From IMG/VR virus record IMGVR_UViG_3300031873_001030: a DNA stretch of 18,824 bases. One strand, given 5' to 3'. The DNA is from a virus (taxonomy: Duplodnaviria > Heunggongvirae > Uroviricota > Caudoviricetes). A program made the position numbers and the translations under genes. Below, in pieces: positions 8,018 to 18,824 of the stretch (the first letter of the stretch is position 1; each line of letters starts with the position of its first letter). Below the pieces are notes generated by a model, which was not told the origin of the DNA, searched no databases, and saw only the letters and a list, made by a program, of their open reading frames with translations.

Positions 8018-8251
8018 ATGGCAAAAAAGAAAAGAAAGGGTTTTGCTGATAATCTAGTTGGATTTTTCATCGGAATTATGGTAGTAGTCATAATTGCCGT
8101 ATCAGTTGTAATTCCAACAATCCAGACTCAAGTTACTGCATACGCTGCAAGTGCTAATTCGTCAGTTACAGTGGTAACACTATTGAACTTGATACCATTG
8201 TTCATAGTATTGGCAATCTTGGTTCTGGTAGTCGGTTTGATGAGATTCTAA
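8018..8251 (+). CDS. Spindle-shaped-virus major capsid protein (SSV1 VP1/VP3-like hydrophobic helical hairpin)
   Basis: 77 aa with a basic N-terminus and two hydrophobic helices. VVIPTIQTQV and TLLNLIPLFIVLAIL match my recollection of mature SSV1 VP1 (LLPVIVSQV...TLLNLVPLFYILVLI). Confidence 0.82.
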   Translation: MAKKKRKGFADNLVGFFIGIMVVVIIAVSVVIPTIQTQVTAYAASANSSVTVVTLLNLIPLFIVLAILVLVVGLMRF

Positions 8252-9815: not shown

Positions 9816-9997
9816 ATAACATGTTAACAAAAAAGAATTCACCAATAGAAAAAATTATAGAAAGATGGAAGGACGAGGAGAATCCTAAGACTGCCTTGAA
9901 GAATGAATATAAAGCATTCCACGAATTTGATAGAAGAAATGGGATAGATAAAAAACATTTGAGATGGATGTATGGTAATAAAAAAAGTAAAAGGTAG
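9812..9997 (+). CDS. Small basic hypothetical protein (ORF-track start 9788 probably too early)
   Basis: The ATGA overlap with the upstream micro-ORF suggests a start at 9812 (or 9821). Confidence 0.55.
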   Translation: MNNMLTKKNSPIEKIIERWKDEENPKTALKNEYKAFHEFDRRNGIDKKHLRWMYGNKKSKR

Positions 9998-10310
9998 ATA
10001 CATCCTTTATTCAAGGACAAGTGGAAGGAGATTGAGCAAGCCATTGCCATCAAGAGCAGCTGCATTGAAACGCGAACGCCAGGTTCAATATTGGAAGAGA
10101 ATAAAAGGATTTGAATTTCCGATACCAATTGAACTTCTTCTTATTGTGATGATTACTGTGATACTTGGAGTAAGTGTTTTGATTCCTATATTGCAAAATG
10201 CAATCGCATCAGAACAGAATGTAGCAATACAGGGAATGTATGGTTTGATAATCTTGTTTTCAGTATTGTTTGATGTTGTAATCATAATGGCATGGTTGAA
10301 AATTTCGTAA
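9972..10310 (+). CDS. Fusion protein: basic N-terminal domain + diverged capsid-like hydrophobic hairpin (minor capsid protein candidate)
   Basis: aa 1-46 are R/K-rich (KGRYILYSRTSGRRL...ALKRERQVQYWK). aa 47-112 carry VSVLIPILQNAI...GLIILFSVL, which parallel VSVVIPTIQTQV...NLIPLFIVL of the 8018 protein. Confidence 0.7.
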   Translation: MVIKKVKGRYILYSRTSGRRLSKPLPSRAAALKRERQVQYWKRIKGFEFPIPIELLLIVMITVILGVSVLIPILQNAIASEQNVAIQGMYGLIILFSVLFDVVIIMAWLKIS

Positions 10311-10379: not shown

Positions 10380-10784
10380 ATGATAGAAAAAGGAACACAG
10401 GCTTGCATTGATTTGTTTGGTTGTAATGAGAATATATTAAATGATTCTATATTCTTGAAAAATCTGATTGCGAAAGCTGTGATAGATTCTGATTTTGTGC
10501 TTGTTGAAAAGATAAAGATGCATCAGTTCACTCCATATGGAGTGACTGGTTATGCATTGCTTGCTTCCTCACATATAGCAATCCATACATGGCCAGAATA
10601 TAACTTCGCATCGATAGATATTTTTGCATGCGACTCAAGAAAAAAAGTCAATACTGCTATCAAGACAATCATAAATGGACTGAATCCTAAGAAAGTGAAA
10701 TCGTTGATATTTAGCAGGGGGTTTATATGTCAGAATGTGAACATGAATGGATTGGTTCTAGAACCTGTCGCAAATGCGGCATAA
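10380..10784 (+). CDS. speD: S-adenosylmethionine decarboxylase proenzyme family (class 1B, pyruvoyl-dependent)
   Basis: Motifs DLFGC, HQFTPYGVTG, LLAS|SHIAIHTWPEY and ASIDIFAC match the prokaryotic AdoMetDC signature. Actual substrate is uncertain. Confidence 0.92.
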   Translation: MIEKGTQACIDLFGCNENILNDSIFLKNLIAKAVIDSDFVLVEKIKMHQFTPYGVTGYALLASSHIAIHTWPEYNFASIDIFACDSRKKVNTAIKTIINGLNPKKVKSLIFSRGFICQNVNMNGLVLEPVANAA

Positions 10785-11955: not shown

Positions 11956-12075
11956 ATGAAAAAGAAAGAATTCAGTAAAGAAAAAAAGGAACCAATTACA
12001 TGGCATGATTTCATGGGACAGGTACATGATGATGTTATCAGGCCAGAAAGGATGAGACCAGAGGTATTGGATTGA
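11956..12075 (+). CDS. 39-aa charged microprotein (MKKKEFSKEKKEPITWHDFMGQVHDDVIRPERMRPEVLD)
   Basis: SD GGAGTGA at 11944-11950. The TGA overlaps the TTG of the next gene. Confidence 0.65.
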   Translation: MKKKEFSKEKKEPITWHDFMGQVHDDVIRPERMRPEVLD

Positions 12076-12299
12076 AAATAATACTAAAGTCCTTTCCTGA
12101 AAATTGGGAAAAGGAAAAATCAATGGTAAAGCCATGCACAGTAAGAAGATTGGATGGCAGGGATACCATAGAGATAATCAATACTGAAACTGGTGAGAAG
12201 ATAGAGAAACACATAACAGATATTTCAGTATGGAAAAATGATATAATAATTTCATTCTCCATGTGGCCAGATGGATTTGTAAAGAGAGGTAAAAAATAA
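12072..12299 (+). CDS. Short ASCH/PUA-like domain protein
   Basis: LKSFPENWEKEKSMVKPCTVRRLD resembles the ASCH-family LK..P..F......K...E/T.R..D motif. TTG start. Confidence 0.5.
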   Translation: MKIILKSFPENWEKEKSMVKPCTVRRLDGRDTIEIINTETGEKIEKHITDISVWKNDIIISFSMWPDGFVKRGKK

Positions 12300-13298
12300 A
12301 TGGCAACTGACATGCTGCCGATGTATTTCATGTCGGCAATGGGTGTATTGGTTCTTGGTATTTTTTTCCTTCTTCTAAGAAAAAAGAAGAAAAAGGAAAA
12401 ATTAAAGCTTACTAGTGCATTGCCAAAACCTATCGAACAACCTGTATCTGTATGGACACCACCAATTGGTTTTGGCATGGGCATGACACAACAGCAAGTT
12501 ATAGCAGAACCAGTAGCTTTAAGTGACTTGGGAAAGACCAGCATATTCAACAGAGTAAAAATATCGATGGACGCGCTGATATTTGCATGTGTATTTGTAG
12601 GTTTCCTTTCTGTATTGATTTTTTATCTGAGTAAAGCGGCTTTTATCGCAGCACTTATAAGCGGCATGATGTTCATACCTATTGGTGTTATAATCGGTGC
12701 GATGTTTGCTTCTAATTTTAGAGTCAAAATAATGAGAAGGTTGACAAGAAAGAATTATGGAATGGTAAAGTTCATACATTCAAACAAGCTGATAAAACCA
12801 GTCATCGCTAATCTTGACAGTGATATAGTAAGATTTGCAGATGGTGTATACATACTTGACAAGCAGACAATAAAGAGAGAAGGTACAGAAACTCCATCTT
12901 CAGATATCATACAGGAAAATGTGATAAAATTTGAGGAAGGCATTCCTACAATCTATTATGACTTGACTGACATAATGCCAGTAGATTTTACAAGCAGCGT
13001 GAAAAAAATAGAAGGAGAACCTGACAGGTTCAGGCTGCCATCTCAAGTATCAGCTACTTTGAACAAGGAGATAGCAGTTGAGAAAGCCAAGATAATGAAG
13101 GCATTCAGGACAAGACAATCCATGTTCATGCTGATAATAATAGCATTGATAGTTATCAATGTCTATTTCAGTTACAGCACATATACAAACAACAAGAACA
13201 TGATGATAAAAATGGATAATGTAAACAGTGGTATGAATGCATTAAGAGGCTTGATACCATCGCAGCCTGTTGCAACTGCCACAACAGGAGGAGGATAA
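12300..13298 (+). CDS. 332-aa multi-pass membrane protein with a central soluble domain; putative virion assembly/egress factor
   Basis: TM1, poly-K, TM pair, soluble domain (EGIPTIYYDL..IMPVDF), C-terminal TM and a short coil. SD GAGGT upstream. Confidence 0.75.
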   Translation: MATDMLPMYFMSAMGVLVLGIFFLLLRKKKKKEKLKLTSALPKPIEQPVSVWTPPIGFGMGMTQQQVIAEPVALSDLGKTSIFNRVKISMDALIFACVFVGFLSVLIFYLSKAAFIAALISGMMFIPIGVIIGAMFASNFRVKIMRRLTRKNYGMVKFIHSNKLIKPVIANLDSDIVRFADGVYILDKQTIKREGTETPSSDIIQENVIKFEEGIPTIYYDLTDIMPVDFTSSVKKIEGEPDRFRLPSQVSATLNKEIAVEKAKIMKAFRTRQSMFMLIIIALIVINVYFSYSTYTNNKNMMIKMDNVNSGMNALRGLIPSQPVATATTGGG

Positions 13299-13300
13299 TA

Positions 13301-13567
13301 ATGTTGACAAATATACTGATGACAAATGATGGAATGAAACATGGGATAAAATGGGGATTGATAATTGTAGCTGTAATATTAGGAATGACATCATTGGCAA
13401 AGATTATGTCATTTGTGATGGACAACGAATTGATAAAAATAATTTTCAATTCCATCTTTGCAGGAGTAGGGATAACGATAGGAACTTACTTTGCAAATAA
13501 GATGCTTATCGACAGGATGGAAAAGTTAAAGCTGATAGGCAAGAAAAAGGAGGCAACAAAATCATGA
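13301..13567 (+). CDS. Small two-TM membrane protein with a basic C-terminal tail
   Basis: Two hydrophobic helices. GGAGGA SD upstream. Confidence 0.75.
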   Translation: MLTNILMTNDGMKHGIKWGLIIVAVILGMTSLAKIMSFVMDNELIKIIFNSIFAGVGITIGTYFANKMLIDRMEKLKLIGKKKEATKS

Positions 13568-13692
13568 GTGAAGCAGTGGTATATAATGACGACTTATCAA
13601 TGGATAAGGTCATACAAATCATAGGAAATGAGATGGTCATTTTCAATGACAATCTGGAACTTGAAAAAATAATACAATTGAGGGATGACTGA
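13564..13692 (+). CDS. 42-aa acidic microprotein with an internal duplication (MSEAVVYNDDLSMDKVIQIIGNEMVIFNDNLELEKIIQLRDD)
   Basis: Fits exactly between ATGA and TGATG overlaps. AAGGAGG SD upstream. Confidence 0.7.
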   Translation: MSEAVVYNDDLSMDKVIQIIGNEMVIFNDNLELEKIIQLRDD

Positions 13693-14156
13693 TGGCAGAT
13701 GACCAAGTAGTCAGAATGTACAATGTTCTGCCAGCAATAGAACAGACTAAGATATTGATAATAGAAAGGTTGAAAATATTGTTCGATGGCATAAATATTT
13801 TGTTCCAAAACAAGCTGATGTCAAAGAAAGATGAAGAGATTATAGCGCTTGTAAAAGCTACTTCAATATCCATATATCTTATGCTGAAACCTAAGATAGT
13901 AGAATATGTTGAACAGAGGATTAGAATAAGACCAGATGCTCTCCAATCAGACATGATGATAAAGGAATTGACAAAAATGATTACCAAGATAGAAAGTTCT
14001 ATAGCAAATCCTAGCGCAATGACAATAGAAGATGCATTGTACTATTCGGATGTCATAAATATATTCTGTCATGATTATGGAATAACAAGAATAACATACT
14101 TCTCAGGCACTGTCAGTGTGCCAGATGAGAAGTCAATATACAACGTGAAAGTATGA
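13692..14156 (+). CDS. 154-aa alpha-helical hypothetical protein (C-terminal YGITRI motif)
   Basis: ORF track, translationally coupled on both sides. Confidence 0.75.
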   Translation: MADDQVVRMYNVLPAIEQTKILIIERLKILFDGINILFQNKLMSKKDEEIIALVKATSISIYLMLKPKIVEYVEQRIRIRPDALQSDMMIKELTKMITKIESSIANPSAMTIEDALYYSDVINIFCHDYGITRITYFSGTVSVPDEKSIYNVKV

Positions 14157-14788
14157 AAAAAGAAATAATCCCATCATTAATGATGGGATTTGCAATGGTA
14201 TTGGCACTAGCATATGTAGGAATAGCTAGTGCTGACACTTGCGTACCTTTGGATGACATAAACAACCTTACAACAAATACATCAGTAAATCTGACATCTA
14301 TATTCATAAGCTTATGTGACAAGATTGCCTCACTGAACACCAGCTACAATAATCTGAATGCAAACTATAGCAATCTAAGCACAAACTACAATGGATTGAA
14401 TATAAAATACATTAGCTTGCTAAATAACATAACAAGCAACAGCACATCAGCAATCATGCTTGGAAATGTCTCATACATATATTACAACATGAATGTGACT
14501 GACCATTACAACAAATTGTCAGTCTACAATTCATCGATATCAAATGCATTATACAGCATGAACTCTGCAGTTGCAAATCTTCCAAATGTCTATCTGAAAC
14601 TTTCAGACTATACTGCATATGCTGCCAGTACAGCAGTGGCTATCGCTAATACAAATATAAAGATAGATTCTGTAAATGCAAGCATAATAGGCATAGATGA
14701 CAGGATTCCAAAAGATTACAACATTTACTTCATGATGGGATTTGTTGTATTGCTCTTAGTAATTGCAGCATTAGTATTCATTAAATAA
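14153..14788 (+). CDS. Membrane-anchored coiled-coil glycoprotein (signal peptide, N-rich heptads, C-terminal TM)
   Basis: Signal ending ASA, then LNTSYNNLNANYSNLSTNYNGLN heptads with many sequons and a C-terminal hydrophobic anchor. Confidence 0.75.
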   Translation: MKKEIIPSLMMGFAMVLALAYVGIASADTCVPLDDINNLTTNTSVNLTSIFISLCDKIASLNTSYNNLNANYSNLSTNYNGLNIKYISLLNNITSNSTSAIMLGNVSYIYYNMNVTDHYNKLSVYNSSISNALYSMNSAVANLPNVYLKLSDYTAYAASTAVAIANTNIKIDSVNASIIGIDDRIPKDYNIYFMMGFVVLLLVIAALVFIK

Positions 14789-14813
14789 CCTTCCTATACG
14801 GTAAGGTGTTAGG

Positions 14814-15185
14814 ATGGTAGAGAAATTCAGAGACGAAGTAAGTGGTGAAGAAATGGTCAGGATAAAGTGTAATATATGCAAGGAAAGCAAGAACTTGAAA
14901 TCTGAGACTTATCAGAAAATGCTCAAGCGTTTCAGCTTCACAAGGTCTTTCCTTTTTGGTATGACCCATGGTATAGAAGCTGTCCTTACCAACAAGCCTA
15001 TACAGGCGACATTATCCAAAGAAGAAATGGAAAGGGCATTTCAAAATGTCTATGTATGCAAGGAATGTAAAAACAACAAGGAAGAGACACTGAAGATAAC
15101 AGAATCCATATCCAGAATTTTGAATCTTCCAATCATACCTAAGGACATTGATAAAGAACGTGGTAATAATGAAAGTAAAAAATAA
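14814..15185 (+). CDS. Zinc-binding protein (CNIC...CKEC)
   Basis: Two CxxC pairs about 60 aa apart. Confidence 0.7.
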   Translation: MVEKFRDEVSGEEMVRIKCNICKESKNLKSETYQKMLKRFSFTRSFLFGMTHGIEAVLTNKPIQATLSKEEMERAFQNVYVCKECKNNKEETLKITESISRILNLPIIPKDIDKERGNNESKK

Positions 15186-15220
15186 GATAGAACTTATAAA
15201 AAAGGCATGGGTGGAACTAG

Positions 15221-15640
15221 ATGCCGATTGACCAACTAGCAATGAACGCAACTGGCACAACTGTACTAAATACTTTGGTGATAGGAGGTCCATTGTTGAT
15301 ATGCATAGCTGTAATAGTCTTTATTGCAATCTTCATATCGATACCATTCATCTATAGAAGAGTGATAAGGATATTCGGCTGGCTAGGAATGACATTCGTA
15401 TATTTCCTGAAAGGACTTGCTGGATTGCTTTCTTTAACTTTGATATATATTGCACTGAAAGGAGGAGCTGAAAATGCCACAAGCATCTTGACAGTCTTGA
15501 AATGGATAGGCATAGCTATCATCTGTTATGCAGCAATAGCAAGCGCAGGCTACATGCTTACATATGCCTGGAAAAAGTTATGGAGACTTTCTGGAAATGA
15601 CAAGTTCCAGAAACGACCAAAGGGAGAAAGAAAGAAATGA
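15221..15640 (+). CDS. Three-TM membrane protein
   Basis: Three long hydrophobic segments and a basic tail. Confidence 0.75.
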   Translation: MPIDQLAMNATGTTVLNTLVIGGPLLICIAVIVFIAIFISIPFIYRRVIRIFGWLGMTFVYFLKGLAGLLSLTLIYIALKGGAENATSILTVLKWIGIAIICYAAIASAGYMLTYAWKKLWRLSGNDKFQKRPKGERKK

Positions 15641-15789
15641 TTATAATACCGCAACCATGGGCAGACATACTATCTTATGGAGTAATAGTGCTTGCAGTAG
15701 GAATAATGGCATGGTTCATTTGGCAGCAACCAATCTGCTTCAGGACAGAAGAAAAGGAAAAGGAAAAGGGGAGAAGTGATAAGAAATGA
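15637..15789 (+). CDS. 50-aa single-TM microprotein (MIIIPQPWADILSYGVIVLAVGIMAWFIWQQPICFRTEEKEKEKGRSDKK)
   Basis: ATGA overlaps at both ends. It replaces the shadow ORF 15564..15779. Confidence 0.7.
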   Translation: MIIIPQPWADILSYGVIVLAVGIMAWFIWQQPICFRTEEKEKEKGRSDKK

Positions 15790-16316
15790 GCAAAACACTA
15801 TTCATAATAGCATTGCTTGTAGCGATTAGCATCATACCAATAGGAGCTATCTTCCAGAACACATGGCTTGACATAGGACTTGGAGCATTCGCAATGCTTC
15901 TTTTTATAATCCACATGAAGACAAAGAGCAATTCAGAATACGAATCAAGGGAGAAAGAACCGACTTATGAACAGGAAGGCAATGTCATAGAACAACCAGA
16001 AGAGCCAGAAGTGCTAGGCATAAGGAAAAGGACAAAAGCAAAAGTAAGAAAGAAAGAAGAAGAAAGTGGAGGAAGCGGATTTCCTTTCATAGGTACTTTC
16101 ATAGGAGTAGCTGTAGCTATCATAGTAGGTGTGGGTGTTGTAATACCAGTCATAAACAACCAGGTGACAAACATGACAAATTCAGTGGAATTAGGCAATT
16201 CTACTAGTATAACTTCATCAGTAAGTACTTTACTAAGTATTGTTCCAATCTTGATGGTATTGGCTATAATAATATCTGTAGTAGGAATGGTTGGTAGGTT
16301 TGGAAGTGGTGTATAA
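15786..16316 (+). CDS. Fusion protein: N-terminal TM hairpin + charged linker + C-terminal capsid-like hairpin (aa 99-176)
   Basis: The C-terminal VVIPVINNQV...TLLSIVPILMVLAII closely parallels the 8018 capsid protein. The linker is E/P-rich, then K/R-rich. Confidence 0.78.
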   Translation: MSKTLFIIALLVAISIIPIGAIFQNTWLDIGLGAFAMLLFIIHMKTKSNSEYESREKEPTYEQEGNVIEQPEEPEVLGIRKRTKAKVRKKEEESGGSGFPFIGTFIGVAVAIIVGVGVVIPVINNQVTNMTNSVELGNSTSITSSVSTLLSIVPILMVLAIIISVVGMVGRFGSGV

Positions 16317-16492
16317 TGCGTTATTGGATTTACAAAGGTACAAGGAACGGTATGGAAGTGTTCAGATGCAACGGATGCGGTTTTGAAAAATGCATAATGC
16401 ATGCAGCAAGCGGAAGAAGAAGACCCAAGAAAGACGGTTCACCAACTGTATTTCATTGTCCAATGTGCAAAGAAGAAATAAACTATAGGTAA
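16316..16492 (+). CDS. 58-aa zinc-ribbon protein (CNGC...CPMC)
   Basis: Manual translation: MRYWIYKGTRNGMEVFRCNGCGFEKCIMHAASGRRRPKKDGSPTVFHCPMCKEEINYR. TAATG overlap. Confidence 0.75.
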   Translation: MRYWIYKGTRNGMEVFRCNGCGFEKCIMHAASGRRRPKKDGSPTVFHCPMCKEEINYR

Positions 16493-16495
16493 TCC

Positions 16496-16864
16496 ATGTT
16501 ACAAAAGTTCGATTGGAGAGGCTTGCCATATGTTCTCCCTCTGATTTTCTTAATTGCAATATCAATACCTGGGGTGATATTTGTTGGAGGAATATTCCAT
16601 GAATGGCTTCATAGTCAGGATTTTGAGACTGAATCCGTATGTATCGACTATACTAACAACTCTTTCATGTACATTACCAGTGCCTACATATACCTTGGCA
16701 ATGAGACCAACAATCACACAAATTTTGACGAAAGAAGCCTTTCCGTATCCAGACATTTCGAGGTATATGCCCTTGAAGGAATAGTAATCGGGATATTATT
16801 TACGCTAATCCTACTATCTTCATTGCTATTGACCAGATTCATAGTGACAAAACATGTGATATGA
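16496..16864 (+). CDS. Small membrane protein with a HExxH motif; putative membrane zinc metalloprotease (M50-like/zincin, minimal)
   Basis: HEWLH (16598-16612) at the end of TM1. HFEVYALE precedes TM2. Confidence 0.55.
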   Translation: MLQKFDWRGLPYVLPLIFLIAISIPGVIFVGGIFHEWLHSQDFETESVCIDYTNNSFMYITSAYIYLGNETNNHTNFDERSLSVSRHFEVYALEGIVIGILFTLILLSSLLLTRFIVTKHVI

Positions 16865-17568
16865 TGCTAAAGACAAACAAGTTGAAACTTGAAAGAATCC
16901 CAATCTGGAAAATAAAAACATCCAACTTCAATATACGAGCCAAGATAGAACCAGACCAAAACCTAAAAAGAAATCTTTATGAAAAAGGACAAATAAACCC
17001 TCTGATAACTCTGAATGACTATACACTGATTTCAGGGTACAGAAGATATGCCGAATTGAAAAGGTTACGTGCAAGAAAAGTGTGGATACTGAAAGTATCA
17101 TATTTGAAAAAGTCAAACGTATTGGAATATCAATTATCTGAAATATTGCATTCAAAAGATATCAATCCTATGGACAAAGGGCGTGCATTCAAGAGACTTA
17201 TGGATTTGAAGAAATTATCAGTACAAAAGCTTTCAAAAATCCTGAACATCCCAAAACACACATTAGAATGGCATCTGAAACTGTTAAAACTTCCAAAAGC
17301 CATCAAGTCAGACATATCTGAAGGAAGGCTCAAGCCATATGGGATAAGGATGCATAGACTATATGGAAAGAAGAGGATACGGACAAGGAGTGACTTCATA
17401 CTATCTTCAAATGATATTCTCTTCGATTCATTCCTGAAAAGGATAGCTGCAATGCGGACCTTGATACCGCAAATCGAATATACAGAAAACCAAAGCAAAG
17501 AGGCAAAAATACTTATTAAGGAACTGCTAACTATCATTGAAAAGAACGGAGGTGCAAATCATGTTTAG
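16861..17568 (+). CDS. parB: ParB/Spo0J-like protein (ParB-N domain + HTH)
   Basis: N-I-R, GQINPL (box I), LISGYRR (GxxR box II), KDINPMD and the HTH-like LSVQKLSKILNIPKHTLEWHLKLL. Confidence 0.82.
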   Translation: MMLKTNKLKLERIPIWKIKTSNFNIRAKIEPDQNLKRNLYEKGQINPLITLNDYTLISGYRRYAELKRLRARKVWILKVSYLKKSNVLEYQLSEILHSKDINPMDKGRAFKRLMDLKKLSVQKLSKILNIPKHTLEWHLKLLKLPKAIKSDISEGRLKPYGIRMHRLYGKKRIRTRSDFILSSNDILFDSFLKRIAAMRTLIPQIEYTENQSKEAKILIKELLTIIEKNGGANHV

Positions 17569-17680
17569 CCAATTAGCCAGAAAGGGAACAATCTCATTCT
17601 CACTGAAGAAGATTGTAGTCCTGATAATATTATTTGCAATAGCTATAATCGCATATCTGATAATTACAAAGAAGAAATAA
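17561..17680 (+). CDS. 39-aa single-TM microprotein (MFSQLARKGTISFSLKKIVVLIILFAIAIIAYLIITKKK)
   Basis: SD GGAGGTG at 17548-17554. One hydrophobic helix flanked by lysines. Confidence 0.7.
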   Translation: MFSQLARKGTISFSLKKIVVLIILFAIAIIAYLIITKKK

Positions 17681-17702
17681 GATATCAAAAACAAGGTATT
17701 AC

Positions 17703-18824
17703 ATGACAAGAAGCGATTTCCTAAAAATACTAGAGCCGTCTGAAGAGAAAGAAGAAAAACCAGAGAAACAACCAGAGGAAACTATCATCCAAAAACCCGA
17801 AGAAGATGTTAATGAGGAAAAAAAAGATGAAATAGAGGAACAACCATCTCCAAGTCCAATTCCTGAAGTAACCATAGAGCTAATAGAAGACACAAGCAAA
17901 ATAGAAAAGTACAAACCTATAATTGAAGACATGGTGATAAAAAAAAGCGACTTGAAACAAGTCGATGAAGTTACCTTAGAAGACAAACTGATAAGCAAGA
18001 AACAACCAGACTGGAAACTAGCCGCCGAAGCTGCAAAAACTGTGCATGTAGAGCTTTCTGAAGACGAACTTGACAGACTATCCATGTCTCTTTCCGAGCA
18101 AACCAAGGAAGATTTGATGAACACTATACGCAGCCTAAACATAACCGACGTCCGCATTGAACTAGACTCGCGTGCAATCAAAATAATGACCAACATAGTC
18201 AACAAATGCAAAGAACTAAACGTCGACTGGTTCATAGCCATAGTGGGAGGTGAAGGCGTAGGCAAGTCAACCCTAGCCTTAAACTTATTCGCCCTCGTCT
18301 GCAAAATGAATAATGTAAATCCAATAGAGATACTTTTAAGAACATTGATATATGATGAAGACGAACTGTTAAGATTCATATCCTCCGTAGACCCGAGAGA
18401 GAAGTTTCTTGCATTAGACCTAGATGAAGGAGCCAACGTCCTGTTCAATCGTGAAAGCATGCAAACCAAGCGAAGCTACATACTAAAATTCTTCAACGTC
18501 ATGAGATTCCTAAATGCAATAGTCTTCATACCAACCCCAAACATCAAATTCCTTGATAAGAATGTAAAAGCCCACAGAATAAAGTCCATATTCTATATAC
18601 CAAGCAGAGGAACATATTGGTTTTACGATAAAGAACAAGTAGACCGAATGCTAGCCAACGAGACAAGCAAGAAATGGTATTGGGTCGAACCCAAAGCAGT
18701 AGGGTCATTCTCCGTAAACAAGGAACTAGAATCAATCGTAAACCTAATCAAGGAAAACTATATACGAATGTTCAGCGAAAAAGTGAAAACCTTCCTCCAA
18801 TCCGAAGAAAAAAAGAAATACAAA
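17703..18824 (+). CDS. P-loop ATPase with an acidic N-terminal extension (3'-truncated); putative packaging/assembly ATPase
   Basis: The frame is open from ATG 17703 to the window end (374 codons). Walker A AIVGGEGVGKST (GGEGVGKST at 18246-18272) and Walker B FLALDLDEG (18405-18431), followed by IPTPNIKFLD. Confidence 0.9.
   Translation, partial: MTRSDFLKILEPSEEKEEKPEKQPEETIIQKPEEDVNEEKKDEIEEQPSPSPIPEVTIELIEDTSKIEKYKPIIEDMVIKKSDLKQVDEVTLEDKLISKKQPDWKLAAEAAKTVHVELSEDELDRLSMSLSEQTKEDLMNTIRSLNITDVRIELDSRAIKIMTNIVNKCKELNVDWFIAIVGGEGVGKSTLALNLFALVCKMNNVNPIEILLRTLIYDEDELLRFISSVDPREKFLALDLDEGANVLFNRESMQTKRSYILKFFNVMRFLNAIVFIPTPNIKFLDKNVKAHRIKSIFYIPSRGTYWFYDKEQVDRMLANETSKKWYWVEPKAVGSFSVNKELESIVNLIKENYIRMFSEKVKTFLQSEEKKKYK

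What the first reader, a model, noticed from the sequence alone, without database searches (positions are those of the whole stretch)
15786..16316. Membrane-anchored capsid-protein fusion: candidate assembly nucleator or virion-end protein
Architecture is TM-TM, then an acidic Pro-rich stretch, a basic stretch, EEESGGSG and a near-complete capsid hairpin that is closer to 8018 than the 9972 copy. A four-helix membrane protein with a flexible linker could seed or terminate helical capsid assembly at the membrane, or connect the shell to the tail. I do not recall this architecture being described.
Basis: inference. Interest (0 to 1): 0.75.

Follow-up and report, generated by a model that had tools for sequence, protein, structure and literature searches.

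The report
Membrane-anchored capsid protein precursor, spindle virus
This gene encodes a second copy of a lemon-shaped archaeal virus's coat protein with an unusual membrane-spanning extension at its front end; the extension is most likely a removable leader, as in the known virus SSV1, rather than a special shell-end protein.

Summary
ORF 15786-16316 (+) encodes 176 aa: two N-terminal hydrophobic helices, a roughly 55-aa disordered linker (acidic, then basic, then EEESGGSG), and a complete alpha-helical hairpin of the spindle-virus capsid family. The hairpin matches SSV19 VP1 (E 8e-6; best Foldseek PDB hit, TM 0.77) and PHROG 11172. It is 42% identical to the 8018 capsid protein, far above composition-matched shuffles.

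The fusion is neither an artefact nor unique. Of 22 relatives found in an exhaustive search, 11 have an N-terminal membrane helix, a charged linker, an acidic/Gly-Ser junction and the hairpin. Eight have soluble extensions and three have almost none. In five small virus-like contigs, the anchored form is the only full hairpin gene found. Close cousins with no extension start exactly at the junction. The experimentally known SSV1 VP1 cleavage site aligns inside the Gly/Ser junction.

My best reading (about 0.5) is a VP1-type precursor whose membrane-anchored pro-region is removed, releasing a minor capsid subunit.

It is a new variant of a known kind. N-terminal extensions on spindle-virus capsid proteins are known; I found no description of membrane-spanning ones. 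Cleavage itself was not tested.

Earlier scan notes on this same contig had already called 8018 a capsid gene.

The parts
15786..16316 (+). Whole ORF, 176 aa (P0001): membrane-anchored extension plus capsid hairpin
   Evidence: intact with no indels in strain contigs
15768..15780 (+). Shine-Dalgarno-like GGGGAG..GTGAT before the ATG. The ATG overlaps the stop of the upstream 50-aa ORF (ATGA), suggesting translational coupling within an operon.
15795..15854 (+). Hydrophobic helix 1 of the extension (about residues 4-23). It is absent from all relatives and could be a first membrane span or a Sec-type signal-like segment.
15867..15914 (+). Hydrophobic helix 2 of the extension (about residues 28-43). 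It aligns with the single N-terminal membrane helix of relatives and is followed by K45/K47, which predicts the cytoplasmic side.
15918..16013 (+). Acidic linker part, residues 45-76 (10 D/E, 3 Pro). Its start, SEYE.R, is shared with P0004.
16014..16055 (+). Basic linker part, residues 77-90 (LGIRKRTKAKVRKK)
16056..16079 (+). Acidic then Gly/Ser junction EEESGGSG (residues 91-98), the proposed processing site. The SSV1 VP1 cleavage site G|E aligns here, at G96|S97.
   Evidence: PMC5748691
16080..16313 (+). Capsid alpha-helical hairpin (residues 99-176): helix 100-136, loop, helix 143-173. Loop sequons are N129-M-T (16170-16178) and N138-S-T (16197-16205); N138 is invariant in the anchored subfamily.
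8018..8251 (+). 77-aa capsid protein paralogue with no extension (P0002), the presumed major capsid protein. It has no SD, sits just after the giant fibre genes and is followed by a 606-nt gap.
9972..10310 (+). 112-aa divergent paralogue with a basic soluble extension (P0003)
15637..15789 (+). 50-aa single-span membrane ORF whose stop overlaps the start of the finding's gene

Best explanation
The gene encodes a VP1-type precursor of a minor capsid protein of a large spindle-shaped archaeal virus.

Shown:
- The C-terminal 78 residues are a complete capsid hairpin, paralogous to the 8018 capsid protein.
- The N-terminal 99 residues are a membrane-spanning segment plus a disordered charged linker.
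- This layout recurs in about half of the detectable relatives.

Inferred mechanism:
1. The extension inserts into the host membrane with the linker on the cytoplasmic side. Basic residues follow the anchor helix.
2. The hairpin inserts with its N-glycosylation sequon loop outside and both ends inside. This is the orientation it has in the SSV19 shell, where the loop faces out and the termini face the DNA.
3. A protease cuts in or near the acidic/Gly-Ser junction (EEESGG|SGF) at the cytoplasmic face, as SSV1 VP1 is cut at the aligned position KLTKG|E.
4. The freed hairpin of about 8 kDa co-polymerises with the 8018 protein during assembly at the membrane.
5. Until it is cut, the pro-region keeps the subunit tethered and probably unable to assemble. 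This resembles in spirit the leader of filamentous-phage procoat and the 'scaffolding' role proposed for the SSV1 VP1 N-terminus.
For: Hairpin identity:
- phmmer against PDB hits only SSV19 VP1 (7xdi_A), E 8.1e-6, residues 98-164.
- PHROG 11172 'virion structural protein', E 7.5e-8. The match falls at profile positions 68-126 of 137, so that family itself carries an N-terminal extension.
- The AF2 hairpin has pLDDT 79-88, and its top Foldseek PDB hit is 7xdi_A: probability 0.99, TM 0.77, rmsd 2.8.
- The shuffle test gives 0 of 2000.

Recurrence of the fusion: the exhaustive phmmer search found 22 relatives. Eleven have a membrane helix, charged linker, acidic/Gly-Ser junction and hairpin. Eight have soluble extensions and three have almost none. 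The P0004 linker is collinear with this one at 33% identity.

Only capsid gene in small elements: in L001, L002, L003, L005 and L006 (6-14 kb held, some with an integrase), the anchored form is the only full hairpin ORF.

Junction matches a natural start: the stand-alone 76-93-aa cousins P0028-P0033 have stop codons just upstream. They begin M-IANLIGGF, exactly where the anchored P0009 and P0026 continue after ...GFN / ...GNFS.

Precedent (PMC5748691): all SSV VP1s have variable N-terminal extensions, and SSV1 VP1 is cleaved before E66. The extension and the 5 residues before the site are essential. MAFFT places a nearly invariant Gly at that site, inside the SGGSG of this protein.

Topology logic:
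- The SSV19 loop is outside and its termini inside (PMC9351363).
- SSV1 assembles at the membrane with no cytoplasmic capsids (PMC5021807).
- The sequon Asn138 is invariant in the anchored subfamily.

Strain variation: 95-97% identical contigs from other sediment metagenomes have no indel in the ORF. All 5 amino-acid changes lie in residues 2-49 and keep hydrophobicity. There is no substitution in residues 50-125, where 7.2 were expected.
Against: - Cleavage was not observed. There are no proteomic or N-terminal sequence data for this virus or any anchored relative.
- The SSV1 and PAV1 extensions are soluble, not membrane-spanning, so the precedent is only partial.
- The universally conserved Glu at P1' of fusellovirus VP1 has no exact counterpart. 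Here the Glu run lies 4-6 residues upstream of the aligned position.
- The linker is conserved with P0004 and invariant among strains. That fits a functional, possibly retained, segment as well as a recognition element. The absence of even synonymous changes could instead reflect a recent recombination tract.
- No candidate protease was identified in the window.
- The small relatives' contigs are incomplete, so 'only capsid gene' holds only for the DNA held.
- The virus already has an extension-free capsid protein (8018), so this paralogue may have taken on a different role.
Confidence: 0.5

Rival explanations
1. Uncleaved, specialised shell protein. The full-length four-helix protein stays tethered in the membrane and is present in a few copies. 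It would seed or terminate the helical strands, or mark the trailing end or budding neck. Its two extra hydrophobic helices would sit in the plane of the hairpin lattice, with the charged linker facing the DNA.
For: - The virus has three hairpin paralogues, including a plain one at 8018, so sub-functionalisation is plausible.
- This protein is the only one among the relatives with two hydrophobic helices in its extension.
- The linker is conserved with P0004 and invariant among strains.
- The gene lies in a block of membrane and glycoprotein genes, away from 8018.
- SSV1 lacking the minor paralogue VP3 makes misshapen virions (PMC5748691), so minor paralogues can control shape.
Against: - In five small relatives the anchored form is the only full hairpin gene, so the architecture as such is not an end-protein signature.
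- In SSV19 the strands start from ordinary VP1 stacked on the tailspike protein VP4, not from a special capsid paralogue (PMC9351363).
- An uncleaved form would put 99 extra residues, including hydrophobic helices, on the DNA-facing side.
Confidence: 0.2
2. Uncleaved general subunit. The extension is kept on every copy and lies inside the particle. The basic stretch would bind DNA, like the Arg-rich N-terminus of SSV19 VP1, and the hydrophobic helices would hold internal lipid.
For: - The basic stretch RKRTKAKVRKK resembles the basic N-termini of 8018 (MAKKKRKG) and of SSV19 VP1.
- SSV1 virions carry much host lipid whose location is unsettled (PMC9351363).
- The anchored form is the only hairpin gene found in the small relatives.
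Against: - Close cousins build the same hairpin with no extension at all, so the extension is dispensable for the lattice.
- The extensions are highly variable in kind (membrane-spanning, acidic or basic) and range from about 45 to 100 aa. That is typical of pro-regions rather than structural elements.
- The SSV1 precedent is cleavage.
Confidence: 0.15
3. Non-structural membrane protein derived from a capsid gene. It could be a tethered decoy that blocks assembly or entry of superinfecting relatives, or a regulator of assembly timing.
For: - Spindle viruses encode many membrane proteins of unknown role, for which superinfection exclusion has been suggested (PMC12934983).
- The gene is SD-led inside an operon rather than promoter-proximal like 8018.
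Against: - The hairpin is well conserved: 44-51% identity to the 8018-type clade.
- It keeps the invariant loop sequon and the helix Pro.
- The small relatives have no other capsid gene.
Confidence: 0.1
4. Artefact: two genes joined by a frameshift or assembly error, or a short capsid protein made from an internal start.
For: An in-frame GTG exists at V76 (16011). Starting there would give a product with a basic N-terminus like that of 8018.
Against: - The same fused layout occurs in 11 independent protein clusters.
- Strain contigs from four other runs keep the frame with no indel.
- No SD precedes the GTG, whereas most operon genes here have one.
Confidence: 0.03

Closest known systems
Fusellovirus VP1 precursor (SSV1 VP1, cleaved before Glu66; minor paralogue VP3 has no extension) - PMC5748691; SSV19 VP1 structure 7XDI - PMC9351363
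   Same: - Homologous two-helix hydrophobic hairpin (E 8e-6; Foldseek TM 0.77).
- An N-terminal extension of variable length and sequence precedes the hairpin.
- A paralogue pair exists, with and without the extension.
- The SSV1 cleavage site aligns inside this protein's Gly/Ser junction.
- The loop carries a glycosylation sequon.
   Different: - The SSV1 extension (about 65 aa) is soluble and amphipathic, with no membrane span. Here it has two hydrophobic helices and a strongly charged, disordered linker.
- The junction is acidic/Gly-Ser rather than K-L-T-K-G|E.
- Here the extension-free paralogue (8018), not the extended one, looks like the major protein.
- Cleavage is unproven here.
His1 VP21 / Halspiviridae-type capsid proteins (Pfam PF25665) and Wyrdviridae, Itzamnaviridae and nanohaloarchaeal spindle viruses with one or two capsid paralogues (bioRxiv 10.1101/2021.07.29.453957; PMC9894754; bioRxiv 10.1101/2025.02.15.638363)
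   Same: - Hairpins of about 80 aa with two predicted membrane spans.
- Large spindle viruses with coexisting divergent capsid genes of unknown division of labour.
- 8018 hits PF25665 at E 3.6e-5.
   Different: The described proteins are about 80 aa with no membrane-anchored extension. The texts I read do not mention such a fusion.
PAV1 ORF121 (Pyrococcus abyssi virus 1 capsid protein)
   Same: A hairpin preceded by an N-terminal extension of about 38 aa.
   Different: The extension is soluble, acidic and short. No detectable close sequence relation was computed here.
Filamentous-phage major coat procoat (M13 pVIII) - from general knowledge; works-like only
   Same: A small hydrophobic coat protein is made with an N-terminal hydrophobic leader, parked in the cell membrane and cut. 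It is then assembled at the membrane without lysis.
   Different: - It is unrelated in sequence.
- The procoat loop is translocated and the leader is cut on the outer face by signal peptidase I.
- Here the linker is predicted to be cytoplasmic, and the cut, if any, would be at the inner face.
Archaeal class III (prepilin-type) signal peptides cut by PibD/FlaK - from general knowledge
   Same: The proposed cut lies on the cytoplasmic face, after a Gly and directly before a long hydrophobic helix. 8018 (KRKG|F) and SSV1 VP1 (TKG|E) have K-G at -2/-1.
   Different: Here the -2 residue is Ser or Gly, not Lys/Arg. The 'leader' is 99 aa with its own membrane spans. No A24 peptidase gene was seen in the window.

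Membership tests
Spindle-virus alpha-helical hairpin capsid proteins (Fuselloviridae VP1/VP3, His1 VP21; PHROG 11172, Pfam PF06281/PF25665) | Two long hydrophobic alpha-helices joined by a short loop, about 70-80 aa | tested here: met
   Hydropathy segments 95-128 and 140-176. AF2 helices 100-136 and 143-173, pLDDT 79-88.
Spindle-virus alpha-helical hairpin capsid proteins (Fuselloviridae VP1/VP3, His1 VP21; PHROG 11172, Pfam PF06281/PF25665) | Significant sequence similarity to an experimentally established capsid protein | tested here: met
   7xdi_A SSV19 VP1, E 8.1e-6. PHROG 11172, E 7.5e-8. SSV1 VP1 ORF, E 5e-9 in a small local database. Shuffle control 0 of 2000 against the 8018 paralogue.
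Spindle-virus alpha-helical hairpin capsid proteins (Fuselloviridae VP1/VP3, His1 VP21; PHROG 11172, Pfam PF06281/PF25665) | Reaches the curated Pfam score of PF25665 or PF06281 | tested here: inconclusive
   No Pfam capsid hit for this protein at E<=1. The 8018 paralogue scores 24.1 bits on PF25665 against a cut-off of 27. This is a detection criterion for very short hydrophobic proteins, not a biological feature.
Spindle-virus alpha-helical hairpin capsid proteins (Fuselloviridae VP1/VP3, His1 VP21; PHROG 11172, Pfam PF06281/PF25665) | Fold matches a solved capsid hairpin | tested here: met
   Foldseek PDB rank 1 is 7xdi_A: probability 0.99, TM (target) 0.77, rmsd 2.8 A over 71 columns. E is only 0.22 because the protein is so short.
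Spindle-virus alpha-helical hairpin capsid proteins (Fuselloviridae VP1/VP3, His1 VP21; PHROG 11172, Pfam PF06281/PF25665) | Lies in a spindle-virus morphogenetic context (capsid paralogue, giant adhesin/fibre, SSV1 B251-like ATPase) | tested here: met
   8018 paralogue plus 1184+ aa and 1460-aa proteins upstream. The ATPase at 17703 weakly matches SSV1 B251, E 0.0016.
Spindle-virus alpha-helical hairpin capsid proteins (Fuselloviridae VP1/VP3, His1 VP21; PHROG 11172, Pfam PF06281/PF25665) | Protein is a component of virions | not testable with these tools
   Uncultured metagenomic virus; no proteomics.
VP1-type capsid precursor (N-terminal pro-region removed by proteolysis, as in SSV1) | N-terminal extension in the same reading frame before the hairpin | tested here: met
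   99 residues precede helix 1. The frame is kept in strain contigs.
VP1-type capsid precursor (N-terminal pro-region removed by proteolysis, as in SSV1) | Extension poorly conserved and of variable length among relatives, with a conserved patch next to the junction | tested here: met
   Extensions of 9-100 aa, membrane-spanning, acidic or basic. About three quarters of the 22 extension-bearing proteins tabulated (20 from the exhaustive search plus P0026 and P0027) have at least 2 acidic residues, and about three quarters at least 2 Gly/Ser, in the 14 residues before helix 1; these are hand counts. E93 is nearly invariant in the anchored subfamily.
VP1-type capsid precursor (N-terminal pro-region removed by proteolysis, as in SSV1) | Conserved Glu at the first residue of the mature protein | tested here: inconclusive
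   MAFFT aligns SSV1 G65|E66 with G96|S97. The Glu run E91-E93 lies 4-6 residues upstream, and gap placement is arbitrary.
VP1-type capsid precursor (N-terminal pro-region removed by proteolysis, as in SSV1) | Mature virion protein lacks the extension | not testable with these tools
   Needs N-terminal sequencing or mass spectrometry.
Archaeal class III (prepilin-type) signal-peptide substrates | Short basic leader directly before the hydrophobic helix, with K/R at -2 and G/A at -1 | tested here: not met
   The leader is 99 aa with its own hydrophobic helices. The residues before F99 are S97-G98, and before S97 are G95-G96. The 8018 paralogue (KRKG|F) does fit the motif.
Archaeal class III (prepilin-type) signal-peptide substrates | Cognate A24-family peptidase available | not testable with these tools
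   None was found among window proteins by Pfam. The host genome is unknown.

The most novel reading that the evidence does not exclude
Membrane-anchored 'pro-capsid' proteins define an undescribed maturation route in a widespread group of low-GC, sediment-dwelling spindle viruses. One sister clade is found in a Pacearchaeota (DPANN) MAG. In this route the coat subunit is parked in the host membrane by its own anchor and released by an intramembrane or juxtamembrane cut. In this 92-kb virus the paralogue has further specialised and stays uncleaved, acting as a lattice-edge, nucleating or terminating subunit.
Probability: 0.2. Interest if true: 0.7.

Novelty: new variant of a known kind. Interest (0 to 1): 0.45.

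Why it matters
How the very hydrophobic coat proteins of lemon-shaped archaeal viruses reach the membrane is still open. So is how they are kept from polymerising too early, and which protease matures them; the SSV1 VP1 protease is still unknown (PMC5748691).

A natural series of the same hairpin with no extension, a soluble extension or a membrane-anchored extension gives a comparative handle on these questions. The junction position is conserved across the series, and it yields simple constructs to test in a tractable archaeal host.

The finding also shows that large spindle viruses can carry three differently 'dressed' capsid paralogues. This bears on how shell size and shape are controlled.

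Tried and rejected
- Co-folding two copies of 8018 with the hairpin (residues 96-176) of this protein gave 'no answer' (score 0.00, chain pLDDT about 50). This is not evidence either way.
- Megablast and tblastn against the phage collection found no match.
- IMG/VR pattern scans with P0001 and P0002 found no confirmed relatives.
- The exact-sequence contig look-up for P0001 found nothing on record, and no whole genome is held for the window.
- The word-indexed homologue search found P0001 alone.
- No RNA holder was listed among the sequencing runs, so expression is untested.
- I tested whether the N-terminal hydrophobic pair is a degenerate third hairpin copy. Scores were at shuffle level, so I rejected this.
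- I rejected an internal start at GTG V76 because no SD precedes it.
- I rejected a frameshift or assembly artefact.
- I considered the HExxH membrane protein at 16496-16864 as the maturation protease. It has no family match. By the positive-inside rule and its sequons, the HEWLH motif lies on the outer face, while the proposed junction is cytoplasmic. I think this candidate unlikely, on inference only.
- A hairpin-only phylogeny was too poorly resolved to say whether the anchor arose once.
- Krupovic et al. 2014 and Quemin et al. 2015 were not held.

Full report
**1. The observation**

ORF 15786-16316 (+) is real and codes for 176 aa. It has an SD-like GGGGAG..GTGAT upstream, and its ATG overlaps the stop of a 50-aa single-span membrane ORF as ATGA. 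It is therefore an internal gene of a tightly packed plus-strand operon.

Hydropathy gives four hydrophobic segments: 1-28, 26-44, 95-128 and 140-176. An AlphaFold2 model built on 25 relatives (mean pLDDT 71.6) gives helices 2-15, 26-48, 100-136 and 143-173, and a low-confidence coil at 49-99.

The linker is acidic at 45-76 (10 D/E, only 3 Pro), then basic at 77-90, then EEESGGSG at 91-98. 'Pro-rich' is an overstatement, and the hairpin is complete rather than near-complete.

**2. The C-terminal domain is a capsid hairpin**

- phmmer against all PDB sequences hits only SSV19 VP1 (7xdi_A), E 8.1e-6, over residues 98-164.
- PHROG 11172 'virion structural protein' matches at E 7.5e-8.
- The model's best Foldseek PDB hit is the same chain: probability 0.99, TM 0.77, rmsd 2.8 A.
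- The 8018 protein (77 aa) gives the same hits, plus Pfam His1_capsid just under threshold.
- The hairpin of 15786 is 42% identical to 8018 (E 2e-7), whereas the 9972 copy is 29% identical (E 0.43).
- Hydrophobic proteins can align by composition alone, so I shuffled 8018 within its own segments. The observed score was 134 against 50.9 +/- 8.5, with 0 of 2000 shuffles reaching it.
- The N-terminal hydrophobic pair is not a decayed hairpin copy. Its scores are at shuffle level.

**3. Survey of the fusion**

An exhaustive phmmer search of 1.84 billion representatives gave 22 relatives at E<1e-3, 81-168 aa long. They fall into three groups:

| Group | Count | Members |
|---|---|---|
| N-terminal membrane helix, basic residues, charged linker, acidic/Gly-Ser junction, hairpin | 11 | P0004, P0007, P0008, P0009, P0014, P0015, P0017, P0018, P0021, P0022, P0025 |
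| Soluble acidic or basic extension of 45-90 aa | 8 | P0005, P0006, P0010-P0013, P0019, P0024 |
| Almost no extension | 3 | P0016, P0020, P0023 |

- The single helix of the anchored relatives aligns with the second helix of this protein. Two hydrophobic helices in the extension are unique to it.
- P0004, the nearest relative, is collinear through the whole linker: K/R after the anchor, SEYE.R, an acidic part, a basic R.K..VR.K part, an acidic part, then SGSG. Identity is 33%.
- No stand-alone homologue of the extension was found.

**4. Context of the relatives**

- Five anchored relatives lie on small, low-GC (30-33%) contigs packed with short co-oriented genes. Some have a tyrosine integrase and a large presumptive adhesin.
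- A hairpin HMM run on all six-frame ORFs of these loci finds the anchored gene as the only full hairpin in each. L005 has an extra half-hairpin. L006 covers 11.4 of 11.9 kb of its contig.
- A profile search also found 76-93-aa cousins of the same hairpin clade that start M-IANLIGGF. They have stop codons directly upstream, usually occur as tandem pairs, and sit beside a giant fibre gene.
- In the anchored P0009 and P0026, the same sequence follows ...GGRGFN and ...SLGNFS. The natural start of the stand-alone proteins therefore coincides with the junction of the fused ones.
- One such locus is in a Candidatus Pacearchaeota MAG, which points to DPANN-type hosts for that clade.

**5. Comparison with known systems**

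- In SSV1, virion VP1 starts at Glu66. All fusellovirus VP1 genes have N-terminal extensions of variable length and poor conservation.
- Deleting the SSV1 extension, or the five residues before the site, abolishes infectivity. The protease is unknown, and a scaffolding role has been suggested (PMC5748691).
- I read the SSV1 VP1 frame directly. The extension is soluble and the cut is KLTKG|EATNIG.
- MAFFT puts a nearly invariant Gly at that position across SSV1 VP1 and the present family. In this protein it falls at G96, inside SGGSG.
- PAV1 ORF121 has a soluble acidic extension of about 38 aa.
- In the SSV19 shell, the loop is outside and both termini are inside, with a basic N-terminus thought to touch DNA (PMC9351363).
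- SSV1 assembles at the membrane, with no cytoplasmic capsids (PMC5021807).
- Papers on Asgard, ANME-1, nanohaloarchaeal and Thermococcales spindle viruses describe hairpins of about 80 aa and one or two paralogues. They do not mention a membrane-anchored extension.

**6. Mechanism**

By the positive-inside rule, the basic residues after the anchor put the linker in the cytoplasm. The hairpin then has its loop outside, carrying the sequons (Asn138 is invariant in the anchored subfamily). This is the same polarity as in the virion.

The most economical reading is a pro-capsid protein. The anchor and linker form a pro-region that parks the subunit in the membrane and is cut at the acidic/Gly-Ser junction on the cytoplasmic face. 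The hairpin then joins the 8018 protein in the shell as a minor subunit, analogous to the VP1/VP3 pair.

What is shown is the domain identities, the recurrence of the fusion, the junction coincidence and the alignment with the SSV1 site. The topology, the cut and the co-assembly are inferred. I put this reading at about 0.5.

**7. Natural variation**

Near-identical DNA occurs in many sediment metagenomes. Contigs from four runs, 95-97% identical, were laid on 15200-16900.

- They have no indel in this ORF, while neighbouring regions do: a 2-nt deletion in the spacer before 16496, and +3 and +9 nt in the 16496 gene.
- In the two runs for which every difference is listed, all five amino-acid changes are in residues 2-49 (S2N, I14F, A34I, H43Y, N49D).
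- There is one synonymous change at Q126.
- There are no changes in residues 50-125, where 7.2 were expected (P about 7e-4).

The anchor therefore tolerates change, while the linker and first hairpin helix are held constant. Because synonymous sites are also unchanged, a recombination tract cannot be excluded.

**8. Rivals**

It is possible because this virus has three paralogues and this one alone has two anchor helices. It is unsupported by the relatives and by SSV19, where strands start from ordinary VP1 on VP4.
- Uncleaved general subunit with an internal DNA- or lipid-binding arm (about 0.15).
- Non-structural derivative (about 0.1).
- Artefact or internal start (about 0.03).

**9. Verdict**

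The feature is real and is a new variant of a known kind. It is of moderate interest as a comparative handle on capsid-protein membrane insertion and maturation in spindle viruses. The decisive data are protein-level: the size and N-terminus of the product, and its place in virions.

Earlier notes of this scan on the same contig had already read 8018 as a spindle-virus capsid gene and flagged the Gly-Phe junction. I re-tested both points here.

Noticed in passing
L002 3558-4124, L003 9411-10001, L005 1090-1545, L006 231-806: A LemA-family (PF04011) gene sits directly or one gene upstream of the membrane-anchored capsid gene in four small virus-like contigs. A Band_7 gene lies further upstream in two of them. 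This is a conserved but unexplained linkage.
   Followed up: no
L007 10001-10476; L008 9028-9549; L010 114-593: Extension-free capsid hairpins occur as tandem near-duplicate pairs. In L008, L009 and L010 they sit directly beside a 681-1549-aa repeat-rich, sequon-rich presumptive fibre. This is the same MCP-beside-fibre layout as at window 8018, but in the opposite order.
   Followed up: partly
L010 (JAUVLT010000015.1): A contig binned as a 'Mycoplasmatota bacterium' MAG carries archaeal spindle-virus-type capsid genes. This is probably a low-GC mis-binning. The sister locus L011 is in a Candidatus Pacearchaeota MAG.
   Followed up: no
L005 9538-9783: An 81-aa protein has a basic N-terminus and only the first capsid helix motif (IQNLVGGFIAIMVAG), with no second hydrophobic helix. 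It is a 'half hairpin' of unknown role.
   Followed up: no
window 16494-16495, 16707, 16851: Strain contigs differ by a 2-nt deletion in the spacer before the 16496 gene, and by in-frame +3 and +9 nt insertions inside that gene (the 122-aa HEWLH membrane protein). The capsid-fusion ORF has no indel.
   Followed up: partly
window 10380-10784: A clear S-adenosylmethionine decarboxylase (SpeD) homologue, Pfam PF02675 E 1e-29, lies in the structural region of the virus.
   Followed up: no
window 16861-17568 and 17703-18824: A ParB-like protein (HTH_ParB E 2e-7) is followed by a Walker-type ATPase. The ATPase weakly matches SSV1 B251, annotated as DnaA-like (E 0.0016 in a small local search). Together they form the likely conserved spindle-virus morphogenesis ATPase module.
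   Followed up: partly
window 12000-18800: Near-identical DNA is held by at least 14 sediment-metagenome runs from many studies (shares 0.2-0.62) besides the probable source run. The virus or close strains are therefore widespread in sediments.
   Followed up: partly
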